DNA from: Octopus vulgaris | Taxonomy: Eukaryota | Assembly: GCA_951406725.2 (NCBI GenBank) | Contig: OX597820.1 | Location: 7,130,001 to 7,194,000, forward strand | Length of the DNA: 64,000 nucleotides | Direction: 5' to 3' | Shown: positions 57,559 to 58,400 of the stretch, piece by piece | Position numbering within the stretch: the stretch's first letter is position 1 | How the letters are laid out: each line of letters begins with the position of its first letter | Notes under the pieces: generated by a model | Told to the model about the DNA's origin: nothing | The model's input: only the letters and a program-made list of their open reading frames with translations | Databases searched by the model: none | Program-made: the position numbers and the translations under genes

Positions 57559-57753
57559 TATCTATCTATCTATCTATCTATCTATCTATCTATCTATCTA
57601 TCTATCTATCTATCTATCTATCTATATATATATATATATATATATATATATATATATATATATATATATATATATATATATATATATATATATATATATA
57701 TATATATATATATATATATATATATATATATATATATATATATATATATATAT
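57559..57753. repeat. (TATC)n + (TA)n
   Basis: Direct reading. Confidence 0.96.
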
Positions 57754-58400
57754 ACTAAGTAATTAAGGGTTTAGCAACGATTTGCCTCCCCACACACCGA
57801 ATTTAGAAATAGCAGTCAAAAAGTTTTGGCTATTCTTTCTACTTAAAAGGGAGGGCGGAAGGGGGATGGTGACATACTTTCATTCACCCTTTGAATTTGG
57901 TGGTACTGGTAATGGCTTACGCTCGCTCTGATACCATGAGTTGAGGTGATGTCTTCTAGTGCCTCCAAATTTAATACACAATTATTAATAATTGACACGC
58001 AATTATTTATAATTGAAGAATCCTACGCTGAGGAGGAAAATAGTCAGGTAAGACATAATTATTTAATTTTTATGCTCTGCGATGACTTAATTCCGAAACG
58101 TACGTCCGTAGGTGACTTAATATAGAATGATTTTCGTCATTTCTTTCTCTTTTGCCTGCGTCGTTTGCTTTTTAAGTGCTTTAGTTTTACTGGGATCTCC
58201 CTTTTAAGTAGAAAGAATAGCCAAAACTTTTTGACTGCTATTTCTAAATTCGGTGTGTGGTGAGGCAAATCGTTGCTAAACCCTTAATTACTTAGTATTA
58301 CTTAAACCTTCCTTGAATTGGGCTTTTACCTGCCGAACTCTACTTGGTGAAATTAATGGTTATTTCTAAATTAATTAATTTCACCATTTATTATTATTGA
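57752..58400 (+). mobile_element. Family D element: 102-bp inverted arms (57752-57853 / 58197-58298) enclosing a hammerhead, plus tail
   Basis: Arms differ at one position; (TA)n flanks. Confidence 0.82.
58022..58112 (+). ncRNA. Intact type I hammerhead ribozyme (predicted cleavage after GUC, 58106)
   Basis: Stem I cctacg/cgtagg; CTGAGGA; stem II ggaa..agtca/tgact..ttcc; GAAAC; palindromic stem III ACGTACGT; GTC. Confidence 0.85.

What the first reader, a model, noticed from the sequence alone, without database searches (positions are those of the whole stretch)
57752..58400. Intact hammerhead caged between 102-bp near-perfect inverted arms
All catalytic core nucleotides are present, with a 6-bp stem I, an extended stem II carrying a ~30-nt AT-rich loop, and a self-complementary stem III (ACGUACGU) typical of hammerheads that cleave as dimers. 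The arms differ at one base, implying a recent insertion. It looks superficially like a MITE, but one arm continues into an unpaired 100-bp tail, as expected for an inverted pLTR.
Basis: partly seen in the sequence, partly recalled or inferred. Interest (0 to 1): 0.72.

Follow-up and report, generated by a model that had tools for sequence, protein, structure and literature searches.

The report
Two-armed Penelope-pasted hammerhead retrozyme copy
This is one truncated copy of a 600-base non-coding repeat that carries a hammerhead RNA motif predicted to self-cut, and its mirror-image arms end at two different fixed points, the same pattern seen in a protein-coding Penelope-type jumping gene of this genome, which likely records such an enzyme copying one RNA onto both sides of a DNA break.

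Summary
Observation confirmed: 102-bp arms with one mismatch, a type I hammerhead at 58022-58112, and a tail on one side. It is not a MITE, and not the end of a coding element that I could find. It is a 5'-truncated copy of a ~600-nt ORF-less tandem unit (non-LTR retrozyme) in a (TA)n tract. The hammerhead covaries across three related families, and its stem III stays self-complementary, which fits dimer cleavage (untested). Copies end at two fixed sites ~100 nt apart (T1, T2). Head-to-head insertions with both ends at a site pair T1 with T2: 39 of 40 here, 23 of 23 in a sister family, 26 of 26 in an ORF-bearing Penelope-like element. The two arms of a locus share private variants. Likely mechanism: a Penelope-type enzyme primes two cDNAs on one RNA from both sides of a break. 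The 'cage' is an accident of truncation, and one mismatch is typical for the family. No parent element was found; cleavage, circles and expression are unshown. This scan reported the same pattern before for other unit sizes in this genome. New member of a known kind.

The parts
57625..57751 (.). left (TA)n target tract
   Evidence: sequence
57752..57853 (-). short inverted arm: unit positions 402-501, its 3' end (site T1) pointing outward into (TA)n
57853..57854 (.). head-to-head junction of two 5'-truncated copies; blunt, no gap or overlap
57854..58402 (+). long arm: unit positions 58-600 of the ~600-nt unit; lacks the first 57 nt that join units in tandem copies
58022..58112 (+). type I hammerhead motif with extended three-part stem II and palindromic stem III; predicted cut after 58106
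58197..58298 (+). segment duplicated in the left arm; ends at site T1 (58296-58298)
58299..58402 (+). tail: the ~100 nt between site T1 and site T2
58345..58386 (+). predicted 13-bp hairpin just upstream of T2; similar hairpins predicted in families A2 and B
58400..58478 (.). right (TA)n target tract
   Evidence: sequence

Best explanation
The locus is one 5'-truncated, two-armed copy of a ~600-nt non-coding, hammerhead-bearing tandem repeat (a non-LTR retrozyme), likely pasted into (TA)n by a borrowed Penelope-like RT/GIY-YIG enzyme that would prime one cDNA at site T1 and a second at site T2 of the same RNA from the two sides of a DNA break. Shown: the unit, its lack of an ORF in the loci examined, hammerhead covariation, two fixed 3' ends in (TA)n, variable 5' ends, T1/T2 pairing, arm-to-arm similarity, and the same pairing in an ORF-bearing PLE. 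Inferred: transcription of tandem copies; cutting of both target strands; two primings on one RNA, probably by an enzyme dimer and possibly helped by a 2-3 nt TA match; end-joining of the two cDNA ends, which gives head-to-head arms with a tail on one side only. Predicted, untested: ribozyme cleavage as a dimer, and circularisation. The template was mostly not a linear RNA starting at the cut site; it was uncleaved multimer or circle. This copy has one hammerhead and lacks the 57-nt linker, so it could not release a unit-length RNA by double cleavage.
For: Unit period 599-600 nt in tandem copies. 119 of 141 outer 3' ends lie at T1 or T2, and 109 of those 119 run into (TA)n. Head-to-head insertions with both ends at a site pair T1 with T2 in 39 of 40 (family A; 38 of 39 if L225 and L264 are one duplicated locus), 23 of 23 (A2), 4 of 5 (B), and 26 of 26 for the ORF-bearing PLE. 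Arms of one locus differ by 2.65% against 5.2% between loci, and share non-majority bases at 1.7% against 0.42% (46 pairs). In L002, L015, L037, L083, L123, L127 and L150 neither arm lies within the other, so one fold-back cannot make them. Compensatory changes occur in stems I, IIa and IIb; N7 varies in 31% of copies against 0-5% at the other CUGANGA positions. 72 of 85 copies run upstream through the cut site. PMC11167929 reports that a PLE protein cuts and extends both strands, starts at two internal sites that delimit the tail, is predicted to be a dimer, and prefers unprocessed RNA.
Against: No PLE with a homologous pLTR or ~100-nt site spacing was found among 70 PLE loci; the active PLE has 56-nt spacing and unrelated ends, so the partner enzyme is unidentified. 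22 of 62 inverted A insertions have at least one end at neither site. 86 of 148 A insertions show no second arm, and only 5 of 87 direct-only copies show a tiny opposite-site arm. Two T2/T2 cases exist (L020 in A, L073 in B). Four A loci and one A2 locus have both 5' ends within 2 nt of each other, as fold-back would give. Gene conversion between arms could also explain their similarity. PMC11167929 saw no difference in start site between strands in vitro. Stem I is not predicted to form in the whole-insert fold (p 0.04). Pfam and PDB gave no significant match for the PLE ORF; its identity rests on motifs and a UniRef label.
Confidence: 0.72

Rival explanations
1. Same element and enzyme class, but the inverted arm arises by self-priming or fold-back: a single cDNA copies itself, and the endonuclease then resolves the intermediate at the other site.
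For: Proposed for PLEs in PMC3846280 (passages). Explains near-identical arms and the five loci with equal 5' ends (L026, L121, L136, L142, L157). The short arm of the window copy lies wholly within its long arm.
Against: At least seven loci have arms that do not contain each other. L136 would have to pass T1 to end at T2. The window junction has no palindrome or overlap.
Confidence: 0.14
2. These are solo or truncated pLTRs of an ORF-bearing PLE that I did not find, not an independent non-coding unit.
For: Same end architecture as the ORF-bearing PLE. Only the top 150 candidates were scored in each of two protein searches, so other PLE families may be missed. The preprint 10.64898/2026.07.22.740005 derives retrozymes from pLTRs.
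Against: In tandem copies the unit's end runs straight into its own start through a 57-nt linker. A2 arrays reach 6152 nt. tblastn found no PLE ORF continuous with any family copy; the few nearby hits were separate insertions.
Confidence: 0.09
3. Mobilised by a (TA)n-targeting LINE through L1-type twin priming, or by rolling-circle DNA amplification, with no PLE involved.
For: A few loci show adjacent, non-duplicating inversions like L1 twin priming (L120, L131). The partner enzyme was not found.
Against: There is no poly(A) or simple-repeat 3' tail. Starts are internal at two sites, arms duplicate sequence, and an identical rule holds in a PLE.
Confidence: 0.04
4. A MITE with 102-bp terminal inverted repeats and TA target duplication.
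For: The single copy looks like one and sits in TA.
Against: No fixed symmetric ends: 0 T1/T1 among 62 inverted copies; arm lengths vary; many copies have one arm only; tandem units exist; the hammerhead is conserved.
Confidence: 0.01

Closest known systems
Animal non-LTR retrozymes (Cervera and de la Pena 2020, PMC7229834, passages and Discussion read; Li, Clavereau and Pollet 2026, 10.64898/2026.07.22.740005, parts 1-3 of 5 read)
   Same: Non-coding tandem unit with one type I hammerhead per unit, low GC, dispersed monomers, dimers and multimers, PLE proposed as the mobiliser, dimer cleavage known from amphibians.
   Different: The unit is 600 nt (170-400 nt in the 2020 paper, but within the 51-972 bp of the preprint). 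Head-to-head arms, two fixed internal ends and (TA)n targeting were not described in what I read ('inverted' occurs 0 times in PMC7229834). Cleavage and circles are shown there and untested here.
EN+ Penelope-like elements: pLTR, inverted 5' copy and tail (PMC3846280 passages; PMC8557442 passages and section 11; PAc in PMC11167929, parts 1-2 of 4)
   Same: 5' truncation, partial tandems, inverted 5' copy, tail at one end, hammerhead upstream of two initiation sites, microsatellite targeting.
   Different: No ORF; tail ~100 nt against 30-40 nt; extended hammerhead rather than a minimal one. The papers call the tail optional or often one-sided; I saw no count of T1/T2 pairing in the parts read.
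ORF-bearing (TA)n-targeting PLE of this genome (L073:6448-2513, 1312-aa open frame; Neptune/Nematis-type CX4CX2C linker by motif only)
   Same: Same target, two 3' ends, T1/T2 pairing in 26 of 26 inverted copies.
   Different: 56-nt spacing, a short variant hammerhead-like motif, no sequence similarity to the unit; not shown to be the partner.

Membership tests
Non-LTR retrozyme | type I hammerhead in each unit | tested here: met
   Core pattern intact in 67 of 76 A copies (32 of 39 in the set not selected on the motif); covariation
Non-LTR retrozyme | tandem repeat organisation with at least two hammerheads | tested here: met
   Family level: L006, L034, L090, L149 are dimers; A2 arrays reach 6152 nt. 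The window copy itself has one hammerhead.
Non-LTR retrozyme | no protein coding, no LTRs | tested here: met
   No PLE ORF continuous with copies and no long ORF in the unit in the loci translated; ends are variable, not LTR-like
Non-LTR retrozyme | self-cleavage of the RNA | not testable with these tools
   Structure prediction only
Non-LTR retrozyme | expressed as linear and circular monomers | tested here: inconclusive
   Only contigs of runs not on record as RNA were available; circular fold z -7.3 against 40 shuffles is not proof
Autonomous EN+ PLE | ORF with RT and GIY-YIG endonuclease | tested here: not met
   None in the unit; no homologous PLE among 70 loci
PLE-type integration (works like) | 5' truncation, partial tandems, inverted 5' copy, one-sided tail | tested here: met
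PLE-type integration (works like) | mobilised by a PLE protein | not testable with these tools
   Inferred from the shared end rule
MITE | fixed symmetric terminal inverted repeats | tested here: not met
   0 T1/T1 and 1 T2/T2 among 62 inverted copies; 86 of 148 copies without an inverted arm
MITE | target-site duplication | tested here: inconclusive
   Cannot be read inside (TA)n

The most novel reading that the evidence does not exclude
Penelope-type integration is obligately two-primed and asymmetric: an enzyme dimer on one RNA assigns one broken target end to T1 and the other to T2, in coding elements and retrozymes alike, which explains inverted pLTRs and the one-sided tail in one step. 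In addition, ribozyme strength sets how much is copied: the sister family with a fixed U4C core change inserts long arrays, while this canonical-core family was never seen beyond two hammerheads.
Probability: 0.35. Interest if true: 0.72.

Novelty: new member of a known kind. Interest (0 to 1): 0.47.

Why it matters
How Penelope-like elements make their tandem and inverted structures is called unresolved in PMC8557442, and how animal retrozymes integrate is only hypothesised in PMC7229834 and the 2026 preprint. These families give a countable genomic footprint (T1/T2 pairing, same-source arms, read-through of the cut site), shared with an intact-looking coding PLE, and so give sharp predictions for the existing in vitro PLE assay. 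The A and A2 pair is a natural comparison of canonical and U4C ribozymes. The single copy in this window is unremarkable within its family.

Tried and rejected
Rfam scans found no hammerhead family; the weak lncRNA and miRNA hits were treated as chance. The count of structure pairs gave no result (string-length error); pairs were counted by script on the same alignment (65 of 66 rows parsed; 66 of the 121 extracted motifs were aligned). Parent PLE: two protein searches and 70 PLE loci from about three families showed no pLTR homology; the GIY-YIG fragment next to L031 is a separate PLE end in the same TA tract. A search with the L025 fragment did not run. Pfam and PDB: nothing significant for the PLE ORF. 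Expression: no RNA holder listed; contigs of four runs guessed to be RNA cover 25-30 of 30 bins but cannot show transcription, cleavage or circles, and no silent control was laid. A pile-up of 5' ends exactly at the cut site was not seen (none at 306-312 of 85). Circle versus linear template was not resolved: A2 arrays are homogeneous (0.41% within a strand, 2.3% median between loci), which fits either. A plant-type primer-binding-like 12-mer on the minus strand near 57927-57938 (motif recalled, from no call) was rejected: it is altered in A2 and there are no LTRs. Presence/absence polymorphism was not tested. Literature searches listed no paper on this family or on T1/T2 pairing; subscription papers are not searched and I read no supplements, which may hold such data (for example Fig. 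S2 of PMC11167929).

Full report
Observation. The arms are 57752-57853 and 58197-58298, 102 nt with one mismatch. Between them, on the + strand, is a type I hammerhead: stem I 58022-58027 with 58107-58112, core CUGAGGA, a three-part stem II, GAAA, a 2-bp stem III around GUAC, cut predicted after C58106. My descriptor found it once in the window and in 0 of 5000 shuffles of the spacer. Rfam did not detect it. Both sides are (TA)n.

The real unit. The genome (2.8 Gb, 227 contigs) holds many copies; two exact patterns gave 88 and 85 hits, which are lower bounds on copy number. In tandem copies the 542 nt seen in the window are joined by a 57-nt linker, giving a unit of 599-600 nt. The window copy is unit 402-501 inverted, joined bluntly to unit 58-600. 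Among 148 distinct insertions of this family (A), 62 are head-to-head and 86 are one-armed. 5' ends are scattered. 3' ends cluster at T1 (~501) and T2 (~600): 119 of 141 outer ends, 109 of them followed by (TA)n. The tail is the stretch between T1 and T2. This excludes a MITE.

The ribozyme. In an alignment of 66 of 121 extracted motifs from families A, A2 and B, script counts show compensatory or wobble-preserving changes in stem I (pairs 1-3), stem IIa (pairs 2-3) and stem IIb (pairs 4-5). These count sequences, not independent events. Within A, N7 varies in 31% of copies and the other CUGANGA positions in 0-5%; conservation of the 3' half is inflated because part of that set was selected on it. 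Stem III is ACGUACGU, its common variant ACGUGCGU (8 of 33 A rows), or ACGCGU in B. All three form full self-duplexes (-9.8, -8.8, -7.5 kcal/mol), while monomeric stem III has probability 0.01. That supports the dimer reading, as proposed for repeat hammerheads in PMC3088659 (passages) and shown for axolotl retrozymes in PMC7229834 (passages). Against activity of this copy: stem I forms in the isolated motif (p 0.81-0.94) but not in the whole-insert fold (p 0.04), and there is only one hammerhead.

How the arms form. Where both outer ends lie at a site, one is T1 and the other T2: 39 of 40 in A, 23 of 23 in A2 (loci chosen with a bias towards arrays), 4 of 5 in B. The other inverted insertions (22 in A, 6 in A2, 4 in B) have an end at neither site and were left out of these counts. 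I then tested an ORF-bearing PLE of the same genome: 7 of 7, 18 of 18 more (20 stretches fetched, one showed a single end), and the L073/L336 pair, 26 of 26 in all. The rule therefore belongs to this kind of integration and is not special to retrozymes. Arms of one locus are half as divergent as copies from different loci and share private bases four times as often (46 pairs, some segments used twice), pointing to one RNA or one source locus, though gene conversion is not excluded. Seven loci have arms that do not contain each other, which a single fold-back cannot make; five loci with equal 5' ends would fit fold-back. [quoted passage not shown] My inference: two primings on one RNA, one at each site, then end-joining. 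One-armed copies would be events whose second arm is empty; only 5 of 87 show a tiny opposite arm, so this step is weakly supported.

Template. 72 of 85 copies extend upstream through the cut site, none starts at 306-312, and 13 start at 313-324. Most templates were thus uncleaved multimers or circles. The longest A arm is 1076 nt; A2 reaches 6152 nt and has U4C in 20 of 20 copies, a change that PMC3088659 says lowers activity in vitro. Weaker cutting giving longer templates is a testable reading; age and post-insertion expansion are alternatives. Expression and circles could not be shown.

Partner. None was found. About three PLE families in 70 loci share no end sequence with the unit, and only the top 150 candidates were scored per search. 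The active PLE is assigned by motifs read from its translation (YVDD, DKSG, CX4CX2C linker, GIY-YIG-like domain) compared with PMC8557442 (passages and section 11), and by a UniRef label; Pfam and PDB were blank.

Comparison and novelty. By the features I could test this is a non-LTR retrozyme (PMC7229834, Discussion read; 10.64898/2026.07.22.740005, parts 1-3 of 5) that integrates like a PLE (PMC3846280, passages). It is not an autonomous PLE. The class, the PLE link and the one-sided tail are in print. The counted T1/T2 pairing and same-source arms did not appear in the parts I read or in five searches; unread supplements and subscription papers may contain them. PMC13282606 (passages) lists Penelope-like families but has no occurrence of 'ribozyme' or 'retrozyme'. 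Earlier AI notes of this scan describe the same pattern for units of 355-491 nt and ~590 nt, and a CCGAUGA variant; a look-up by this sequence found none. I saw them, and they are not independent support.

Verdict. Real feature; new member of a known kind; interest 0.47, carried by the testable integration rule and the A/A2 contrast rather than by this copy.

Noticed in passing
L119, L153-L176, L268-L287 (family A2): Sister family, 588-nt unit, ~78% identical, 676 exact hits of a 26-nt pattern. Core CCGAUGA (U4C) in 20 of 20 copies examined. 30 same-strand tandem links among the first 100 listed hits, against 3 among all 88 for family A (counted by hand; Fisher p 6e-7). A2 is younger, which inflates the contrast.
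   Followed up: partly
L269, L270: Variants repeat with a period of three units inside two A2 arrays: a trimeric circle or template, or later block duplication.
   Followed up: no
L073:913-1600 and L178-L201 (family B): Older relative, 78-92% identical to the L073 copy; hammerhead with a 6-nt palindromic stem III and compensatory changes in stem I.
   Followed up: partly
window 23345-23745: Diverged relative without a hammerhead: two ~90-nt inverted arms, and a tail-like segment beyond the left arm separated from it by a microsatellite; read by eye as a T2/T1 pair.
   Followed up: partly
L073:6448-2513 (-) and L070-L079, L318-L337: Very young (TA)n-targeting PLE with long open frames (up to 1312 aa, Asn-rich insert) and ORF start about 20 nt upstream of T1. 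The closest database protein (99%) carries the source label Octopus vulgaris.
   Followed up: partly
L031 (G000:C4:31206500-31216400): A 2.9-kb tandem duplication holding a broken PLE 3' end and a family A copy in the same TA tract.
   Followed up: partly
L006 cut-to-cut unit: In the circular fold T1 and T2 both lie in unpaired stretches of one branched domain, and the 57-nt linker pairs with the segment upstream of T1.
   Followed up: no
family A, unit positions 313-324: 13 of 85 copies start just downstream of the cut site, about three times the rate upstream (hand estimate): a minority of cleaved templates, or AT microhomology.
   Followed up: no
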